Positions 211-61,133 of a DNA stretch of 64,000 bases are shown here, in pieces. The stretch is from the human T2T-CHM13v2.0 reference genome, Homo sapiens: NCBI RefSeq assembly GCF_009914755.1, contig NC_060930.1, one strand, 5' to 3'. Position numbers and translations under genes: made by a program. Below the pieces are notes generated by a model. The model searched no databases. It saw only the letters and a list, made by a program, of their open reading frames with translations, and had not been told where the DNA came from. Position 1 is the first letter of the stretch, and the number at the start of each line of letters is the position of its first letter.

Positions 211-4035
<3,825 letters not shown>

Positions 4036-27268: not shown

Positions 27269-27477
27269 TAACCTAATTAAGAAAACCTGTAAGTTTTCTT
27301 AATTAGGACCCTGATGCCCTGCCTAGTTCTTACTAGTAACCTCCTGGCAAAATTTAGAGTCAATTCTCTCTATCTATGTCCCCCTACTCTCATTCCTGTC
27401 ATGTCCAGGCACTGGTGAGAGAGCTGATTCAGCATGAACTAACCTTTGAAGAGCTATAATATCACCACTTGCCATAC

Positions 27478-29078
27478 TGAGAGGTGACAGCACGCTGGCA
27501 GCCCTCACAGCCCTCGTTCGCTCTTGGCGCCTCCTCTGCCTCGGCGTCCACTCTGGCCATGCTCGGGGAGTCCTTCAGCCTGCCACTGTGCTGTGGGGGC
27601 TCCTCTCTAGGCTGGTTGAGGATGGAGCCAGCTCCCTCAGCTTGCTAGGAGGTGTGGAGGGAGACGCATGGGCAGGAACCGGGGCTGCGCCTGGCGCTTG
27701 CGGGCCAGCTAGAGTTCCAGATGGGCGTGGGCTTGGTGGGCCCTGCACTCAGAGCGGGCAGCCGGCCCCACTGGCCCCGGGCACTGAGGGGCTTAGCACC
27801 TGGGCCAGCAGCTGTGGAGGGTGCACTGGGTCCCCCAGCAGTGCCAGCCCACCAGCGCTGCACTCAATTTCTCGCCGGGCCTTAGCTGCCTCCCTGCGGG
27901 GCAGGGCTCGGGACCTGTAGCCCACCATGCCTGGGCCTTCCTCCGCCCCCACCCTGCCGTGGGCTCCTGTGCAGCCCAAGCCTCTGCAGTGAGCACCGCC
28001 CCCTGCTCCACGGCGCCTGGTCCCATCAATCACCCAAGGGCTGAGGAGTGCAGGCACATGGCGCAGGACTGGCAGGCAGCTCCACCTGCGGCCCTGGTGT
28101 GGGATCCACTGGGTGAAGCCAGCTGGATGCCTGAGTCTGGTGGGGACTTGGAGAACCTTTATATCTAGCTAAGGGATTGTAAACACACCAATCAGCACCC
28201 TGTGTCTAGCTCAGGGTTTGTGGATGCACCAATCGGCACTCTGTATCTAGCTAATCTGGTGGGGACTTGGAGAATCTGTATGTCTAGCTAGGGATTGTGA
28301 ATACACCAGTTGGCACTCTGTATCTAGCTCAAGGTTTGTAAATGCACCAATCAGCACTCTGTGTCTAGCTCAAGGTTTATAAATGCACCAGTCTGTGCTC
28401 TGTGTCTAGCTGATATGGTGGGGACTTGGAGAACCTTTATGTCTAGCTAAGGGATTGTGAATACACCAATTGGCACTCTGTATCAAGCTCAAGGTTTGTA
28501 AATACACCAATCAGCACTCTGTGTCTAGGTCAGGGTTTGTAAATACACCTATCAGTACTCTGTATCTAGCTAATCTAGTGGGGACATGGAGAACTTTTGT
28601 GTCTAGCTCAGGGATTGTAAATGCACCAGTCAGCACCCTGTCAAAATGGACCAATCAGTTCTCTGAAAAACAGACCAATCGGCTCTCTGTAAAATGGACC
28701 AATCAGCAGGATGTGGGTGGGGCCAGGTAAGAGAATAAAAGCAGGCTGCCCGAGCCAGCAGTGGCAACCCGCTCGGGTCCCCTTCCGCACTGTGGAAGCT
28801 TTGTTCTTTCGCTCTTTGCAATAAATCTTGTTGCTGCTCACTCTTAGGGTCCACGCTGCTTTTATGAGCTGTAACACTCACCACAAAGATCTGCAGCTTC
28901 ACTCCTGAAGCAAGTGAGACCACAAACCCACCAGAAGGAAGAAATTCCAAACACATCCAAACCTCAGAAGGAACAAACTCCAGACATGCCACCTTTAAGA
29001 ATTGTAATACTGACCGCGAGTTTCCATGGCTTCATTCTTGAAGTCAGTGAGATCAAGAACCCACCAATTTCGGACACA
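27478..29078 (+). promoter_or_regulatory. 5' LTR12 (1.6 kb) with tandem CCAAT/GATA enhancer repeats, AATAAAA TATA-like box (~28734) and polyA signal
   Basis: About eight intact CCAAT motifs in 28188-28705 within TCTAGCT-containing repeats; ends CGGACACA. Confidence 0.92.
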
Positions 29079-29081
29079 TTT

Positions 29082-29099
29082 TGGCGACCCAGATGGGAC
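29082..29099 (+). other. Primer-binding site for tRNA-Arg
   Basis: TGGCGACCCAGATGGGAC directly after the LTR; complementary to a tRNA-Arg 3' end, as known for ERV9. Confidence 0.85.
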
Positions 29100-30329
29100 T
29101 ATCACCTATCACTGAGCAGCGAGACAGTCACCTATCACCAAGTGGTGAGACCATTGCCTATTGCTGAGCAGTGAGACTGTCACCTATCGCCAAGCAGTGA
29201 GTACCATCGGACTCCTTTCGCTTACTATTCTGTCCTATTTTTCCTTAGAATTCGGGAGCTAAATACTGGGCACCTGTCGGCCAGTAAAAAGCAACTAGCA
29301 TGGCTGCCAGACTAAAGACATGGGTGTCAGGCTTTCTGGGAAAGGGCTCTCTAACAACCCCTGACTCTTCAGAGTTGGGAGCATTGGTTTGCCTAGAACC
29401 AGCTTCTGCTTTTCCTGTACTTCCGGGCTGAGCTGAGGGTTGACAGAGAGGAAAGCCATGCAGCTCCCGGGTCCCAACAACAAGTTGGTTGACCCTGCAG
29501 CCATGAGCAGAACTCTCAAAGGCATGTCACCCAAGAGAGACTCGCCCATCTATCCTATCTATCCTGACCCTTGACCCTGGGTCCTAATGCCTGCCAGACA
29601 AACTTCCTCTCGCCTCTCTTCTCTGAGGCTAGTCCCGCTTCTAAAAATCACTCCCTGTCTCTGGTGCTTTTCTAGTTTCTCCTATAATGACTTCTAGTAT
29701 AAACTCTGTTACCTTCTTTAGGCACCCGGGCTCACCAATCAGAAAGACATAATTTTTGCCCAAAGCCCCATCGTAGTGGGGACTACCTGGAATTTTAGGA
29801 TCCCTCCTCAGACTAACAGGCCTAACAAAACCTATTCCTGAAGCTAGGATATGAGGAGCCTCAGGAATTGTATCCTTCCTATTCATATAAGTGAGGACAA
29901 AAGGTGTCACTCTTCCAACCCTGGAGATCCCTTCCCTCCCTCAGGGTATGGCCCTCCACTTCATTTTAGGGGCATAACATCTTTATAGGACAGGGGTAAA
30001 GTCCCAGTACTAACAGGAGAATGCTTAGGACTCTAACAGGTTTTTGAGAATGCGCCAGTAAGGGCCACTAAATCCGACTTTTCTTGGTCGGTCCTCCTTG
30101 TGGTCTAGGAGGACAGGCAAGGGTGCAGGTTTTCAAGACTGCGTCAGTAAGGGCCCACTAAATCCAAGCTTCCTTGGTCCTCTATGTGCTCTGGGAGGAA
30201 AACTAGTGTTTCTGCTGCTGCGTCAGTGAGCGCAACTATTCTGACCAGCAGTGTCCAGGGACCGTTGCAGGTTCTTGGGCAGGGGGAGAAACAAAACAAA
30301 CCAAAACTGTGGGCAGTTTTGTCTTTCAG

Positions 30330-31772
30330 ATGGGAAACACTCAGGCATCAACAGGCTCACCCTTGAAATGCATCCTAAGCCATTGGGACCCATTTGACCC
30401 ACAAACCCTAAAAAAGAGGTGGCTCTTTTTTCTGCACTATGGCTTGGCCCCAATATTCTCTCTCTGATGGGGAAAAATGGCCACCTGAGGGAAGTACAAA
30501 TTACAATACTATCCTGCATCTTGACCTTTTCTGTAAGAGGGAAGGCAAATGGAGTGAAATACCTTATGTCCAAGCTTTCTTTTCATTGAGGGAGAATACA
30601 CAACTATGCAAAGCTTACAATTCACATCCCACAGGAGGACCTCTCAGCTTACCTCCATACCCCAGCCTCCCTATATCTCCCCTTCCTATTAATGATAATC
30701 CTGCTCTAATCTCCCCTGCCCAGAAGGAAATAAGCAAAGAAATCTCCAAAGGACCACAAAAACTCCCAGGCTATAGGTTATGTCCCCTTCAAGCTGTAGG
30801 GGGAGGGGAATTTGGCCCAACCCAGATACATGTCCCCTTCCCTCTCTGATTCAAAGCAGATCAAGGCAGACCTGGGGAAGTTTTCAGATGATCCTGATAG
30901 GTACATAGATGTCCTGCAGGGTCTAGGGCAAACCTTCGACCTCGCTTGGAGAGATGTCATGCTACTGTTAGATTAAATGCTGGCCTTTAATGAAAAGAAT
31001 GCAGCTTTAGCTGCAGCCTGAGAGTTTGGAGATACCTGATATCTTAGTCAAGTAAATGATAGAATGACAGCCAAAGAAAGGGACGAATTCCCTACCAGTC
31101 AACAAGCCATCCCCGGTATGGATCCCCACTGGGACCTTGACTCAGATCATGGGGACTGGAGTCGTAAACATCTGTTGACCTGTATTCTAGATGGACTAAG
31201 GAGAATTAGAAAAAAGCCCATGAATTATTCAATGATGTCCACCATAACTCAGGGAAATGAAGAAAATCTTTCTGCCTTCCTCGAAGGGCTACAGGAGGCC
31301 TTAAGAAAATATACTCCCCTGTCACCTGAATCACTCGAGGGTCAATTGATTTTAAAGATAAATTTATTATCCAATGAGCCACAGATATCAGGAGAAAGCT
31401 CCAAAAGCAAGCCCTGGGCCCTGAACAAAATCTAGAGGCATTATTAAACCTGGCAACCTCAGTGTTCTATAATAGGGACCAAGAGGAACAGGCCCAAAAT
31501 CAGAGAAAGGCCACAGCCTTAGTCATGGCCCTCAGACAAACAAACCTTGGTGGTTCAGAGAGGACAGAAAATGGTGCAGGCCAATCACCCGGTAGGGCTT
31601 GTTATATGTGTGGCTTACTAGGACACTTTAAAAAAGATTGTCCAATGAGAAACAAGCTGCCCCCTCATCCATGTCCACTATGCTGAGGCAATCACTGGAA
31701 GGTGCACTTCCCCAGAGGATGAAGGTTCTCTGAGTCAGAAGCCCCCAACCAGATGATCCAACAACAGGATTG
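30330..31772 (+). pseudogene. gag: HERV9 gag (disrupted)
   Basis: MGNTQAS start, WPPEGS, zinc knuckle CYMCGLLGHFKKDC; multiple stops and frameshifts. Confidence 0.92.
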
Positions 31773-32718
31773 AGGGTGTCCAGGGCAAGCGCCAGCTTGT
31801 GTCATCACCCTCACTGAGCCCCGGGTATGTTTAACTATTGAGGGCCAGGAAATTGACTTCCTCCTGGACACTGGCGTGGCCTTCTCAGTGTTAATCTCCT
31901 GTCCTGAATGACTGTCCTCAAGGTCCATTACCATCCGAGGAATCCTGGGACAGCCTGTAACCAGGTATTTCTCCCACCTTCTCAGTTGTAACTGGGAGAC
32001 TTTGCTCTTTTCACATGCCTTTCTTGTTATGCCTGAAAGTCCCACATCCTTATTAGGGAGGGATATATTAGCCAAGGCTGGAGCTATTATCTACATGAAT
32101 ATGGGGAACAAGTTACCCATTTGTTGTCCCCTACTTGAGGAGGGAATCAACCCTGATGTCTGGGCATTGGAAGGACAATTTGGAAGGGCAAAAAATGCCT
32201 GCCTAGTCCAAATCAGGTTAAAAGATCCCACCACTTTTCTTTCTCATAGGCAATATCCCTTAAGGCCTGAAGCTCATAAAGGATTACAGAATATTGTTAA
32301 ACATTTAAATGCTCAAGGTTTAGTAAGGAAATGCAGCAGTCCATGCAACACCCCAATTCTAGGAGTATAAAAACCAAATGGTCAGTGGAGACTAGTGCAA
32401 GATCTTAGACTCATCAATGAGGCAGTAATTCCTCTGTATCCAGTTGTACCAAACCCCTATAACCTGCCCTCTCAAATACCAGAGGAAGCAGAATGGTTCA
32501 CAGTTCTGGACCTCAAGGATGCCTTCTTCTGTATTCCCCTGCACTCTGACTCCCAGTTCCTCTTTGCCTTTGAGGATCTCACAGACCACATATCCCAACT
32601 TATGTGGACGGTCTTGCCCCAAGGATTTAGGGATAGCCCTCATCTATTTGGTCAGGCACTGGCCCAAGATTTAGGCCACTTCTCAAGTCCAGGCATTCTG
32701 GTCCTTCAACATGTGGAT
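31773..32718 (+). pseudogene. pol: HERV9 protease and N-terminal reverse transcriptase (truncated)
   Basis: LLDTG (31861), LLGRD, QDLR, DLKDAFF, LPQGFRDSP; ends at the HVD remnant of the YXDD motif. Confidence 0.92.
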
Positions 32719-32736
32719 CTTCAACCCATATCTGCC

Positions 32737-33350
32737 TCTCAGACAGTTTGCAAAAAATAACAAAATCTATCCTTACTCTACAATCCCAAATAGAGTCTTT
32801 GGCAGCAGTGACTCTCCAAAACTGCCAAGGCCTAGACCTCCTCAAAGCTGAGAAAGGAGGACTCTGCACCTTCTTAGGGGAAGAGTGTTGTTTTTACACT
32901 AACCAGTCAGGGATAGTATGAGATGCCATCTGGCATTTACAGGAAAAGGCTTCTGAAATCAGGCAAATTTCAATTTCTTGCCTTTCAAATTCTTATACCA
33001 ACCTCTGGAGTTGGGCAACGTGGCTTCTCCCCTTTCTAGTTCTGTGGCAGCCATCTTGCTGTTACTTGCATTTGGACCCTGTATTTTTAACCTTCTTGTC
33101 AAATTTGTTTCCTCTAGAATCGAGGCCATCAAGCTACAGATGGTCTTACAAATGGAACCCCAAATGAGTTCAACTAACAAGTTATACCGAGGACCCCTGG
33201 ACCGACCCACTGGCACTTTTACTGGCCTAGAGAGCTATCCTCTGGAGGACACTACAACTGCAGGACCCCTTCATCGCCCCATCCAGCAGGAAGTAGCTAG
33301 AGCGGTCATCAGCCAAATTCCCAACAGCAGTTGGGGTGTCCTGTTTAGAC
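32737..33350 (+). pseudogene. env: HERV9 env transmembrane-subunit remnant
   Basis: Immunosuppressive-domain-like LQNCQGLDLL, CX6CC motif (CTFLGEECC), FGPCIFNLLVKFVSSRIEAIKLQ. Confidence 0.9.
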
Positions 33351-33357
33351 ATGGGAT

Positions 33358-34000
33358 TGAGAGGTGACAGCGTGCTGGCAGCCCTCACAGCCCTCGCTCA
33401 CTCTTGGTGCCTCCTCAGCCTCAGCGTCCACTCTGGCCATGCTTGGGGAGTCTTTCAGCCCACCACTGCACTGTGGGGGACCCTCTCTGGGCTGGTTGAG
33501 GCTGAAGACAGCTCCCTCAGCTTGCTGGGAGGTGTGGAGGGAGAGGCATAGGCAGGAACCAGGGCTGCACGTGGTGCTTATGGGTCAGCTAGAGTTCTGG
33601 ATAGGCGTGGGCTTGGTGGGCCCCTCTCTTGGGGTGAACCCATTTCAGAGCACCCTGCCCTTCACAAAGAAAAGAGAACTCTCCCCGGGGCTCCAGCTGG
33701 CTTCTCCGGGATCAGTCACGTTACCACACTGTGGAAGCTTTGTTCTTTCACTCTTTGCAATAAATCTTGCTGCTGCTCACTCTTTGGGTCCACACTGCCT
33801 TTATGAGCTGTAACACTCACTGTGAAGTCTGCAGCTTCACTCCTGAAGCCAGCAAGACCATGAAACCACTGAACACATCTGAACATCAGAAGGAACAAAC
33901 TCCGGACACACCACCTCTAAGAACTGTAACACTCACCGCGAGGGTCCGCAGCTTCATTCTTGAAGTCAGTGAGACCAAGAACTCACCAATTCCAGACAAA
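33358..34000 (+). mobile_element. 3' LTR12 with ~1.04 kb replaced by a 28S rRNA fragment
   Basis: Colinear with the 5' LTR up to 33623 and again from 33724. Confidence 0.93.
33618..33731 (-). rRNA. 28S rRNA fragment (non-functional captured copy)
   Basis: Minus strand reads GGTAACGTGACTGATCCCGGAGAAGCCAGCTGGAGCCCCGGGGAGAGTTCTCTTTTCTTTGTGAAGGGCAGGG...ATGGGTTCACCCCAAGAGAGGGGCCC. This matches recalled mammalian 28S, with differences mostly at CpGs. Confidence 0.9.
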
Positions 34001-34396
34001 ATACTATTCATTAATTGATCCATTAATCATCCCAAAGTCCTTTCAGTTGTTGTGAGTACTATTTTACTGATAAAATTGAAAGAATTAGAAGAGAAATTCC
34101 AGATCCCTAGCTGCATCTACATACACATGCTCTGCCTTCTTTTTTGTTGCTAAAAATGAACTACCCCTGCAACCATCTAAACCAGGTCATCCACGTGAGC
34201 ACTGGATTCCATCCCTTCTTTCCTAGTCAAAGATATTATTATAGCAATTCTCTTCCGTCTCTCCTATGTCAACATGTATTTACTAGTTTATTAGCATACA
34301 AATGTATAAGTATTCCTTCCACATTACAAAATAACGAGCAAATTTTCCTTCCTCTCATTGCCTGCTTCCTTTTTCTCACTCTGCTGCTTTGCTTTC

Positions 34397-42768: not shown

Positions 42769-46100
<3,332 letters not shown>

Positions 46101-57299: not shown

Positions 57300-61133
<3,834 letters not shown>

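What the first reader, a model, noticed from the sequence alone, without database searches (positions are those of the whole stretch)
33618..33731. 28S rRNA fragment patched into the HERV9 3' LTR, replacing its enhancer and promoter
Seen: the 3' LTR follows the 5' LTR to GGGCCC (33618-33623 = 27738-27743), carries ~100 unrelated bases, then resumes at CCACACTG (33724-33731 = CCGCACTG 28785-28792). The ~1041 bp lost include the CCAAT repeats and the AATAAAA box; the polyA signal is kept. Knowledge: the insert read on the minus strand is 28S rRNA (GATCCCGGAGAAGCC...GGGGAGAGTTCTCTTTTCTTTGTGAAGGGCAGGG). As I recall the 28S sequence, it contains GGGCCC and CCGCACTG exactly at these joints, giving microhomology at both ends with no poly(A) or TSD. 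Inference: both U3 copies of a provirus come from one RNA template, so a change in only one LTR points to a post-integration germline break repaired with rRNA-derived template (RNA/cDNA or rDNA). CpG decay in the insert suggests the event is old.
Basis: partly seen in the sequence, partly recalled or inferred. Interest (0 to 1): 0.82.

Follow-up and report, generated by a model that had tools for sequence, protein, structure and literature searches.

The report
28S rRNA patch in HERV9 LTR
One end of an old, broken endogenous retrovirus on human chromosome 6 lost about 1 kb of its control region and carries instead a 100-base copy of ribosomal RNA sequence, most likely the scar of an ancient DNA break repair, a known kind of event.

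Summary
A defective HERV9/LTR12 provirus lies at 27478-34000, flanked by a 4-bp duplication (ATAC). Its 3' LTR matches the 5' LTR up to GGGCCC (33618-33623). It then carries 100 foreign bases (33624-33723) and resumes at CCACACTG (33724-33731). The 1041 bases of 5' LTR U3 without a counterpart (27744-28784) hold the 41-nt enhancer repeats, 8 CCAAT motifs and the AATAAAA box. Window 33618-33731 is antisense 28S rRNA, nt 2574-2687 of a chr13 rDNA copy, 104 of 114 identical. Real 28S carries GGGCCC and CCGCACTG at exactly the two joints, giving 6- and 8-nt microhomologies (random joining: P 0.0016 and 0.00017). No other place in T2T-CHM13 spans either junction, so this is not a propagated viral variant. 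Eight of 11 CpGs in the patch are lost, so it is old, dating from the older half of the provirus's residence. Best reading (0.65): a germline break repaired by microhomology-primed copying of rRNA or rDNA, a class 2 templated sequence insertion. This is a known kind of event, a clean example of modest interest.

The parts
27474..27477 (.). Left copy of the 4-bp target-site duplication (ATAC)
   Evidence: Read. The same 4 bases follow the 3' LTR at 34001-34004.
27478..29078 (+). 5' LTR (1601 bp), complete LTR12-type LTR, TG...CA termini
   Evidence: 41-nt repeats x10.2. CCAAT, GTGGGGA, GATA-type motifs and AATAAAA, matching the LTR12 description in PMC11853044.
27744..28784 (+). 1041-nt stretch of U3 (enhancer repeats and promoter box) that has no counterpart in the 3' LTR
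   Evidence: Ten of 10 other LTR12 copies run uninterrupted across the left site. Nine of 10 do so across the right site; the tenth had no hit in the 3 kb held.
29079..33357 (+). Defective proviral interior: gag (p30, zinc knuckle), protease, start of RT, then directly the env TM region
   Evidence: Pfam on 11 of the 13 plus-strand stop-to-stop ORFs (23 ORFs on both strands). Six of 11 hit: Gag_p30 5.5e-13, zf-CCHC 3.5e-5, RVP 1.7e-4, RVT_1 2.5e-12, TLV_coat 4.4e-21 and 1.3e-3.
33358..34000 (+). 3' LTR (643 bp), chimeric; terminal CA reads AA
33618..33623 (.). Left junction microhomology GGGCCC, shared by 5' LTR, 3' LTR and antisense 28S
   Evidence: Observed length 6; random expectation P(>=6) = 0.0016.
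33624..33723 (-). 100-nt patch; its minus strand is 28S rRNA sense. With both microhomologies it equals 28S nt 2574-2687.
   Evidence: 104 of 114 identical to rDNA. Of the 10 differences, 7 are CpG transitions, 1 is a transversion at a CpG and 2 are non-CpG transitions.
33724..33731 (.). Right junction microhomology (CCGCACTG in the 5' LTR and in rDNA; now CCACACTG here after a CpG change)
   Evidence: Observed length 8; P(>=8) = 0.00017.
33732..34000 (+). Retained end of the 3' LTR, including the AATAAA poly(A) signal at 33759
34001..34004 (.). Right copy of the target-site duplication (ATAC)
   Evidence: Read.

Best explanation
After the HERV9 provirus had integrated in the germline of a catarrhine ancestor, its 3' LTR broke within U3 (inferred). 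The ends were resected or trimmed, which cost about 1 kb. The top-strand 3' end, finishing in GGGCCC, paired with the same hexamer in 28S sequence. A polymerase copied about 100 nt of it, in the direction that makes antisense 28S. The new end, finishing in CCGCACTG, then paired with the identical octamer at the start of the remaining LTR and sealed the break. This is a microhomology-primed templated patch, of the class 2 templated-sequence-insertion / alternative end-joining kind. The template was either 28S rRNA itself or its cDNA, or single-stranded rDNA; I lean towards RNA. Candidate copying enzymes, none tested here, are polymerase theta (which can reverse-transcribe), L1 ORF2p acting without its endonuclease, or another reverse transcriptase. 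The result is a 3' LTR without enhancer repeats or promoter box but with its poly(A) signal. The patch has since decayed neutrally. Shown here: the anatomy, the source sequence, both microhomologies, uniqueness in the genome, and old age. Inferred: the break, the order of steps, the enzyme, the template molecule, and that it happened after integration.
For: 1. The patch is 28S and the donor arrays are intact: 38 chr13 rDNA copies match at 91% and E 1.8e-37, and 28 of 28 held copies are identical over the region.
2. Microhomologies of 6 and 8 nt sit at the two joints, each improbable under blunt joining (P 0.0016 and 0.00017). Imperfect homology runs further on both sides.
3. Deletion plus insertion, with no target duplication around the patch, no A-tail and no L1 cleavage-site signature, fits the class 2 TSIP description in PMC5110952 (passages). 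Experimental patches there measured 73-414 bp.
4. It is a local event, not a viral variant. Only the window itself spans the junctions: 1 of 40 scored out of 547 candidates, 1 of 31 scored out of 31 for the left joint, and 1 of 40 scored out of 313 for the right joint. Ten of 10 and 9 of 10 other LTR12 copies are uninterrupted at the two sites.
5. Both LTRs belong to one integration: ATAC duplication at both ends.
6. It is not an assembly or read artefact, because the patch carries 10 decay-type differences from rDNA.
7. LSU fragments scattered in the human genome are documented: 109 in hg19, of which 76 lack a tail (PMC4994717 passages).
8. Polymerase theta can reverse-transcribe RNA and promote RNA-templated repair (PMC8195485, title and abstract start only).
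Against: Nothing shows directly that the provirus ever existed at this locus with an intact 3' LTR; no other primate genome could be searched. The patch appears about as old as the provirus. CpG loss is 8 of 11 in the patch against an estimated 0.62 per lineage in the LTRs. Transversions are 1 of 114 against 12 of 541 between the two LTRs. The likelihood of 'same age' is 3.9 times the mean over a uniform later time, and the posterior for patch age over provirus age has median 0.85 and lower 2.5% bound 0.50. That mildly favours an event at or near integration. This estimate assumes equal CpG decay rates in patch and LTR and rests on only 11 CpGs. A 1-kb loss is large for a simple end-joining event. 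With only about 109 LSU fragments genome-wide and LTR12 covering a small fraction of the genome, such a hit in an LTR12 is itself a rare draw. RNA versus DNA template cannot be decided from the sequence.
Confidence: 0.65

Rival explanations
1. The chimera arose during reverse transcription, before or at integration. While the plus strand of the 3' LTR was being completed, the viral reverse transcriptase left the minus-strand DNA at GGGCCC and copied 100 nt of a 28S rRNA present in the particle or complex. It then returned to the minus strand 1041 nt further on, at CCGCACTG. This would leave a heteroduplex confined to the 3' LTR, which replication resolved. A close variant is that the unintegrated linear viral DNA was broken and patched by host end joining before integration.
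For: The patch is antisense 28S on the proviral plus strand, the orientation expected if rRNA was copied while the plus strand grew. In the textbook scheme of reverse transcription the 3' LTR plus strand is made last, so an error there marks only that LTR. Microhomology-guided switching is how reverse transcriptases change templates (general knowledge, recalled). The patch is not measurably younger than the provirus: likelihood ratio 3.9 for equal age, posterior median 0.85 of the provirus's age.
Against: It needs two non-homologous switches in one plus-strand synthesis, whereas most retroviral recombination is ascribed to minus-strand synthesis (recalled, not checked in a paper here). It needs rRNA at the site of synthesis and survival of a large-loop heteroduplex. 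No second example exists among the LTR12 copies found. The timing argument rests on 11 CpGs and cannot separate 'at integration' from 'within the first millions of years after'. The antisense orientation has an even chance under break repair too.
Confidence: 0.2
2. Two unrelated events occurred: a 28S fragment inserted into U3, and a separate deletion later removed about 1 kb that happened to end at the insert's edges.
For: Old LTRs do accumulate deletions. The 3' LTR has a further 17 gap columns against the 5' LTR downstream of the patch.
Against: Both edges of the 28S piece coincide with points where LTR homology stops and restarts, each through a shared 6- or 8-nt word. Two independent events would not be expected to give microhomology at both joints (P 0.0016 and 0.00017).
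Confidence: 0.05
3. The chimera belonged to a propagated LTR12 variant, or was brought in by recombination or gene conversion with another chimeric element. Alternatively both LTRs once had it and the 5' LTR was later converted back.
For: The LTR-LTR divergence is high: 68 of 541, or 12.6%.
Against: No other locus in T2T-CHM13 spans either junction. The ATAC duplication ties both LTRs to one integration. The left and right retained parts of the 3' LTR are equally distant from the 5' LTR, 12.0% and 13.4%. The genome search scores only the best candidates (40 of 547 and 40 of 313), so a very decayed second copy could have been missed.
Confidence: 0.03
4. It is an assembly or sequencing artefact, for example an rRNA or rDNA read joined into the assembly.
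For: None found.
Against: The patch differs from rDNA at 10 of 114 positions, in the pattern of long residence in methylated DNA: 8 of 11 CpGs lost. An artefact would be near-identical to rDNA.
Confidence: 0.01

Closest known systems
Class 2 templated sequence insertions (TSI/TSIP; Onozawa, Aplan and colleagues; review PMC5110952, passages read)
   Same: A short copy of a distant, still-intact sequence fills a break. There is no target-site duplication and no poly(A). The junctions show microhomology and loss of recipient sequence. The size lies in the experimental range of 73-414 bp. An RNA-derived origin is proposed.
   Different: This one is ancient and presumably fixed, not a human polymorphism. 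Its source is rRNA, which does not occur in the review's text (0 occurrences of 'rRNA' or 'ribosomal'). The recipient loss is about 1 kb rather than a microdeletion. Both microhomologies are long. The primary papers (PMC4040595, PMC4419790) were not held, so I could not check whether rRNA sources are listed there.
Dispersed 28S (LSU) fragments of the human genome, including SINE28 (Longo et al. 2015, PMC4994717, passages read)
   Same: A 28S-derived fragment lies outside the rDNA arrays. That paper found 109 such fragments in hg19, most non-3' ones without a tail.
   Different: SINE28 derives from the terminal ~500 nt of 28S and has A-rich tails and target duplications. This piece is internal (nt 2574-2687), untailed, without duplication, and replaces sequence. 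Whether this locus is among the 109 could not be checked, because Table S1 is in a PDF that cannot be read here.
Polymerase-theta-mediated end joining with templated insertions, and RNA-templated repair (PMC8195485, listing and abstract start only)
   Same: A microhomology-primed synthesis step is followed by a second microhomology annealing. The polymerase is able to copy RNA.
   Different: No enzyme can be assigned from the sequence. Typical templated insertions of this pathway are short and copied from nearby DNA (recalled).
Capture of host RNA by viral polymerases through copy choice (retroviral transduction; 28S pieces reported in RNA viruses; recalled, not read here)
   Same: A host rRNA piece lies inside a viral sequence and is joined at short homologies.
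   Different: Here it is antisense, confined to one LTR, accompanied by a 1-kb loss, and never propagated.
rDNA-like 'junk' from decaying rDNA units (Robicheau et al. 2017, PMC5381670, abstract and three passages)
   Same: rDNA-derived sequence lies outside the arrays.
   Different: Those are long degraded rDNA units with spacer, often near centromeres, ascribed to array dynamics. This is a 100-nt piece of mature 28S only, with repair-type joints.

Membership tests
HERV9 (ERV9) provirus with LTR12-type LTRs | Two direct LTRs around gag-pro-pol-env remnants of gammaretrovirus type | tested here: met
   LTR alignment. Pfam Gag_p30, zf-CCHC, RVP, RVT_1 and TLV_coat in that order on the plus strand.
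HERV9 (ERV9) provirus with LTR12-type LTRs | U3 with 5-17 tandem ~41-nt repeats carrying CCAAT, GATA-type and GTGGGGA motifs, and an AATAAAA box upstream of the start site (PMC11853044) | tested here: met
   5' LTR: period 41 x 10.2 copies; 8 CCAAT, 3 GATA-type motifs, 4 GTGGGGA, 1 AATAAAA. In the 3' LTR the only one left is a single CCAAT at 33986 in the retained end. The subfamily (LTR12, B-F) was not determined.
HERV9 (ERV9) provirus with LTR12-type LTRs | Dispersed multi-copy family | tested here: met
   30 and 39 other genomic places match the LTR parts of the two junction queries.
HERV9 (ERV9) provirus with LTR12-type LTRs | Primer-binding site for tRNA-Arg | not tested
   A TGG-initiated stretch follows the 5' LTR. 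Its match to tRNA-Arg is recalled, not tested.
Class 2 templated sequence insertion (break patch) | Insert copied from a distant sequence that remains intact | tested here: met
   rDNA arrays hold the sequence.
Class 2 templated sequence insertion (break patch) | No target-site duplication, no poly(A) tract, no poly(A) signal use | tested here: met
   Direct reading of 33590-33760.
Class 2 templated sequence insertion (break patch) | End-joining features at the junctions (microhomology, loss of recipient bases) | tested here: met
   6 and 8 nt of microhomology; 1041 nt lost.
Class 2 templated sequence insertion (break patch) | Derived from RNA by reverse transcription | not testable with these tools
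   The piece lies wholly within mature 28S, which fits RNA but does not exclude rDNA.
Class 2 templated sequence insertion (break patch) | Occurred at a chromosomal break, that is after the recipient sequence was in place | not testable with these tools
   This needs orthologous loci of other primates, and none are held.
L1-mediated retro-insertion (class 1 TSIP, SINE28, processed pseudogene) | Target-site duplication, A-rich tail, insertion without loss of target | tested here: not met
   None of the three is present, so it is not filed here.
Functional LSU rRNA gene (Rfam RF02543) | Score at or above the gathering threshold | tested here: not met
   19.1 bits against 50; no hit at gathering level. 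It is a 114-nt fragment only.

The most novel reading that the evidence does not exclude
The chimera is a fossil of a reverse-transcription accident in an ancient retrovirus. A plus-strand template switch onto 28S rRNA, frozen in the 3' LTR alone, would be a natural record of host rRNA being available to the reverse-transcription complex, and of one-LTR-only inheritance of a plus-strand error. A related bold reading concerns the template. An independent, much younger 28S patch on chr5 (28S nt 2572-2772, 98% identical to rDNA) ends within 2 nt of the same 28S position. If that is more than coincidence, it would mark a stop on an rRNA template, and so RNA rather than rDNA as the source.
Probability: 0.2. 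Interest if true: 0.6.

Novelty: new member of a known kind. Interest (0 to 1): 0.3.

Why it matters
It is a clean, fully resolved natural example of a break patch copied from ribosomal RNA sequence, with long microhomology at both joints, inside an element whose second copy (the 5' LTR) preserves the 'before' state. That built-in control is rare and makes the locus useful as a teaching case. It would also serve as a test locus once ape and monkey orthologues are compared. In practice the 3' LTR is disarmed as enhancer and promoter, and no gene is annotated downstream. The antisense-28S stretch could attract mis-mapped rRNA reads in expression or chromatin data for LTR12. The locus also shows that LTR asymmetry alone does not prove a post-integration event.

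Tried and rejected
1. Global MAFFT of the two LTRs misaligned everything after the left joint. I replaced it with segment-wise pairwise alignments.
2. Rfam on the region gave only a sub-threshold LSU hit stretched over 203 nt. It showed the family but not the joints, so real rDNA from the same genome was used instead.
4. Onozawa 2014 and 2015 were not held.
5. Table S1 of PMC4994717, listing 109 LSU fragments with LSU start and end, is in an unreadable PDF. The two readable supplements do not contain it. I therefore could not run a census of 28S fragment end points, nor check whether this locus is already listed.
6. A genome-wide census through the genome search was not attempted, because the rDNA copies fill the 40 scored places.
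7. A link between the shared 28S end point and a modified rRNA nucleotide was considered. I dropped it because I could recall no modification at that position and had no table to check.
8. The chr5 fragment was considered as donor of the patch. Its only extra agreement with the window is one CpG change in the microhomology octamer, so this is parallel decay and not evidence of descent.
9. Literature searches gave no paper on this chimera by title or abstract start: 'LTR12' with '28S rRNA' found 12 papers, 8 listed, and a five-term search on rRNA capture at breaks found 28 papers, 12 listed.

Full report
**What is there**

The window holds a defective gammaretrovirus-like provirus on the plus strand at 27478-34000.
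- The 5' LTR is 27478-29078 (1601 bp) and the 3' LTR is 33358-34000 (643 bp).
- The four bases ATAC precede the 5' LTR (27474-27477) and follow the 3' LTR (34001-34004), as expected of one integration event.
- Between the LTRs, 6 of the 11 plus-strand open stretches I submitted hit Pfam families, in the order Gag_p30, zinc knuckle, retroviral protease, reverse transcriptase, then directly the transmembrane part of Env. I submitted 11 of 13 plus-strand stretches, out of 23 on both strands; the two left out lie mostly in the LTRs. A large pol-env stretch is therefore missing.
- The 5' LTR has the marks that the LTR12 review gives for ERV9 LTRs (PMC11853044, passages): about 41-nt tandem repeats (10.2 copies at 28164-28571) with CCAAT, GATA-type and GTGGGGA motifs, and an AATAAAA box (28734).
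- I did not determine the LTR12 subfamily. The tRNA-Arg primer site is recalled, not tested.

**The observation**

Segment-wise alignment and a three-way reading with real rDNA confirm each coordinate of the finding.
- The 3' LTR follows the 5' LTR from its first base to GGGCCC (33618-33623 = 27738-27743), 234 of 266 identical.
- It then has 100 bases unrelated to the LTR (33624-33723).
- It resumes at 33724-33731, which corresponds to 28785-28792, and runs to the end, 240 of 277 aligned positions identical.
- The 1041 bases 27744-28784 of the 5' LTR have no counterpart. They hold all 8 CCAAT motifs of that stretch, the repeats and the AATAAAA box. The AATAAA poly(A) signal is kept (33759).
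- That the 5' LTR shows the normal state is supported by other copies. Of 10 other LTR12 loci fetched, 10 run uninterrupted across the left site and 9 across the right site; the tenth had no hit in the 3 kb held.

**The source of the patch**

The window's own genome (T2T-CHM13) is held, so real rDNA could be used rather than memory.
- A search with window 33590-33760 gave 547 first-look candidates, of which 40 were scored. These were the window itself (whole query), one place on chr5, and 38 rDNA copies on chr13.
- The rDNA copies each match query 29-142, that is window 33618-33731, on the opposite strand with E 1.8e-37.
- The alignment is gap-free, 104 of 114 identical.
- I fetched one rDNA copy and delimited its 28S with Rfam (LSU_rRNA_eukarya 2379 bits, 5083 nt). 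The match is 28S nt 2574-2687.
- All 28 chr13 copies held are identical over the region. They are spaced exactly 46,970 bp apart and may be modelled copies, so this says little about natural variation.
- Rfam on the window itself is weak for so short a piece: 19.1 bits against a gathering score of 50, and nothing at gathering level.

**The joints**

- Real antisense 28S reads GGGCCC at its left end and CCGCACTG at its right end. The 5' LTR has the same words at the points where the 3' LTR leaves and rejoins it.
- The G-to-A change inside the octamer in the 3' LTR is a CpG change made after the event, since both parents carry G.
- In 400,000 random joins of the real 5' LTR to real antisense 28S, microhomology of 6 or more occurred with frequency 0.0016, and of 8 or more with 0.00017. 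The joints were therefore made by annealing, not by blunt ligation of a stray fragment.
- Such shared words are plentiful: 115 shared 8-mers exist between the LTR and antisense 28S. A homology-seeking process had many options.
- Imperfect similarity continues a little beyond both words. This explains why some ordinary LTR12 copies align a few bases into the patch.
- There is no A-run and no duplication around the patch.

**Uniqueness**

Junction-centred searches found only the window itself spanning either joint.
- Left joint: 31 of 31 candidates scored, and the 30 others stop at query position 38-51 of 65.
- Right joint: 40 of 313 candidates scored, and the 39 others start at query position 21-33 of 69.
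- The tool scores only its best candidates, so a badly decayed second copy cannot be strictly excluded. A copy sharing the chimera would, however, have outscored every partial match.

The chimera is therefore not a propagated LTR12 variant.

**Age**

- The two LTRs differ at 68 of 541 aligned positions (12.6%, K2P 0.14; 12 transversions). This is an old provirus within the roughly 30 to 6 million-year window the review gives for ERV9.
- Among LTR CpG sites, 5 are intact in both LTRs and 16 in only one. This gives about 0.62 loss per lineage.
- The patch has lost 8 of its 11 CpGs. It has 2 changes at 92 non-CpG positions and 1 transversion in 114.
- I modelled the patch's age as a fraction of the provirus's age using CpG loss and transversions. 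The likelihood peaks at 1.0, and equal age is 3.9 times as likely as the average over a uniform later time. The posterior has median 0.85 and lower 2.5% bound 0.50.
- The estimate rests on 11 CpGs and assumes equal decay rates.

**Mechanism**

- A germline break in U3 of the integrated 3' LTR lost about 1 kb.
- The top-strand end finishing in GGGCCC annealed to 28S sequence and about 100 nt were copied.
- The new end finishing in CCGCACTG annealed to the other side of the break.

This matches the published class 2 templated sequence insertions. Those have no duplication and no poly(A), and show microhomology and recipient loss. Experimental sizes are 73-414 bp. Evidence for an RNA origin comes from reverse-transcriptase inhibitors and from transfected RNA (PMC5110952, passages). 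Polymerase theta can reverse-transcribe RNA in repair (PMC8195485, title and abstract start). L1 ORF2p acting at breaks is the other candidate named in the review.

Whether the template was rRNA, its cDNA or rDNA cannot be read from the sequence. If RNA was copied directly, the growing strand was the top strand. If DNA was copied, either strand could have been extended.

**The main rival**

That is not strict.
- In the textbook scheme, the plus strand of the 3' LTR is completed last, by copying the minus strand.
- A double template switch at that step onto an rRNA would give antisense 28S on the plus strand, in the 3' LTR only. This is exactly the observed orientation and placement, and it would leave a heteroduplex that replication resolves.
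- The timing result mildly favours an event at integration.
- Against it: two non-homologous switches during plus-strand synthesis are thought to be rare (recalled), rRNA must have been at hand, and no other LTR12 shows anything similar.

I give this 0.2. Only orthologous loci can separate the two readings, and no other primate genome is held here.

**Other readings, all at low odds**

- Two separate events (0.05). This does not explain microhomology at both edges.
- A propagated or converted variant (0.03). No second copy exists, the flanking duplication is intact, and the two retained parts of the 3' LTR are equally distant from the 5' LTR at 12.0% and 13.4%.
- An artefact (0.01). The patch carries 10 decay-type differences from rDNA.

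**Comparison with what is known**

- Scattered LSU fragments are documented: 109 in hg19, of which 37 come from the last ~500 nt (the tailed SINE28 group) and 33 are tailed in all (PMC4994717, passages).
- The present piece is internal, untailed and replaces sequence, so it is not a SINE28.
- It may well be one of the 72 other fragments, but Table S1 is in a PDF I could not read.
- Decaying whole rDNA units (PMC5381670, abstract) are a different thing.
- Searches for LTR12 together with 28S rRNA (12 papers, 8 listed) and for rRNA capture at breaks (28 papers, 12 listed) showed no description of this chimera by title or abstract start.

I file it as a new member of a known kind.

**A side observation that bears on the template question**

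- The one non-rDNA match, on chr5, is a 201-nt antisense 28S piece (nt 2572-2772, 98% identical to rDNA).
- It is joined without microhomology to a 3'-truncated L1 on one side and to unique DNA on the other.
- It is a much younger, independent patch, and its 28S end lies within 2 nt of the window's.
- With two cases, one of them set by a microhomology, this may be chance. A census of fragment ends would tell.

**Verdict**

The event is ordinary in kind but unusually clean. Interest 0.3.

Noticed in passing
L002 1499-1699 (G000 C5:72332171-72332371): A second, independent antisense 28S piece (28S nt 2572-2772, 98.0% identical to rDNA). It is joined bluntly to an L1 that stops about 2.8 kb short of its 3' end, and to unique DNA on the other side. 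Its 28S end lies within 2 nt of the end of the window's patch.
   Followed up: partly
window 33594-33660 and 33694-33761: Beyond the exact 6- and 8-nt words, antisense 28S and LTR12 stay partly similar for some 10-16 more bases at both joints. Ordinary LTR12 copies therefore align a few bases into the patch (query ends at 47-51, query starts at 21-24).
   Followed up: partly
window 32371-32918: The proviral interior passes from the first part of reverse transcriptase (RVT_1, profile positions 3-142 of 205) straight to the Env transmembrane region (TLV_coat positions 431-492). The rest of pol and the env surface part are therefore deleted.
   Followed up: no
window 33860-33880 against 28920-28945: The 3' LTR has a further loss of about 13-17 bases in its downstream part relative to the 5' LTR (17 gap columns). 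This is unrelated to the patch.
   Followed up: no
window 1636-3046 (+), 43752-45166 (-), 58292-59706 (-): Three L1 copies in the window are 94.6-96.3% identical over 1415 bases to the L1 next to the chr5 28S piece. Young L1s are thus dense around this provirus.
   Followed up: no
G000 C13:5.78-7.52 Mb: The rDNA copies on chr13 are spaced exactly 46,970 bases apart, and the 28 held are identical over 320 bases. They look like modelled array copies, so their identity is not independent evidence about natural rDNA variation.
   Followed up: no
window 33999: The terminal CA of the 3' LTR reads AA, a single change at the very end of the provirus. The ATAC duplication follows directly.
   Followed up: no
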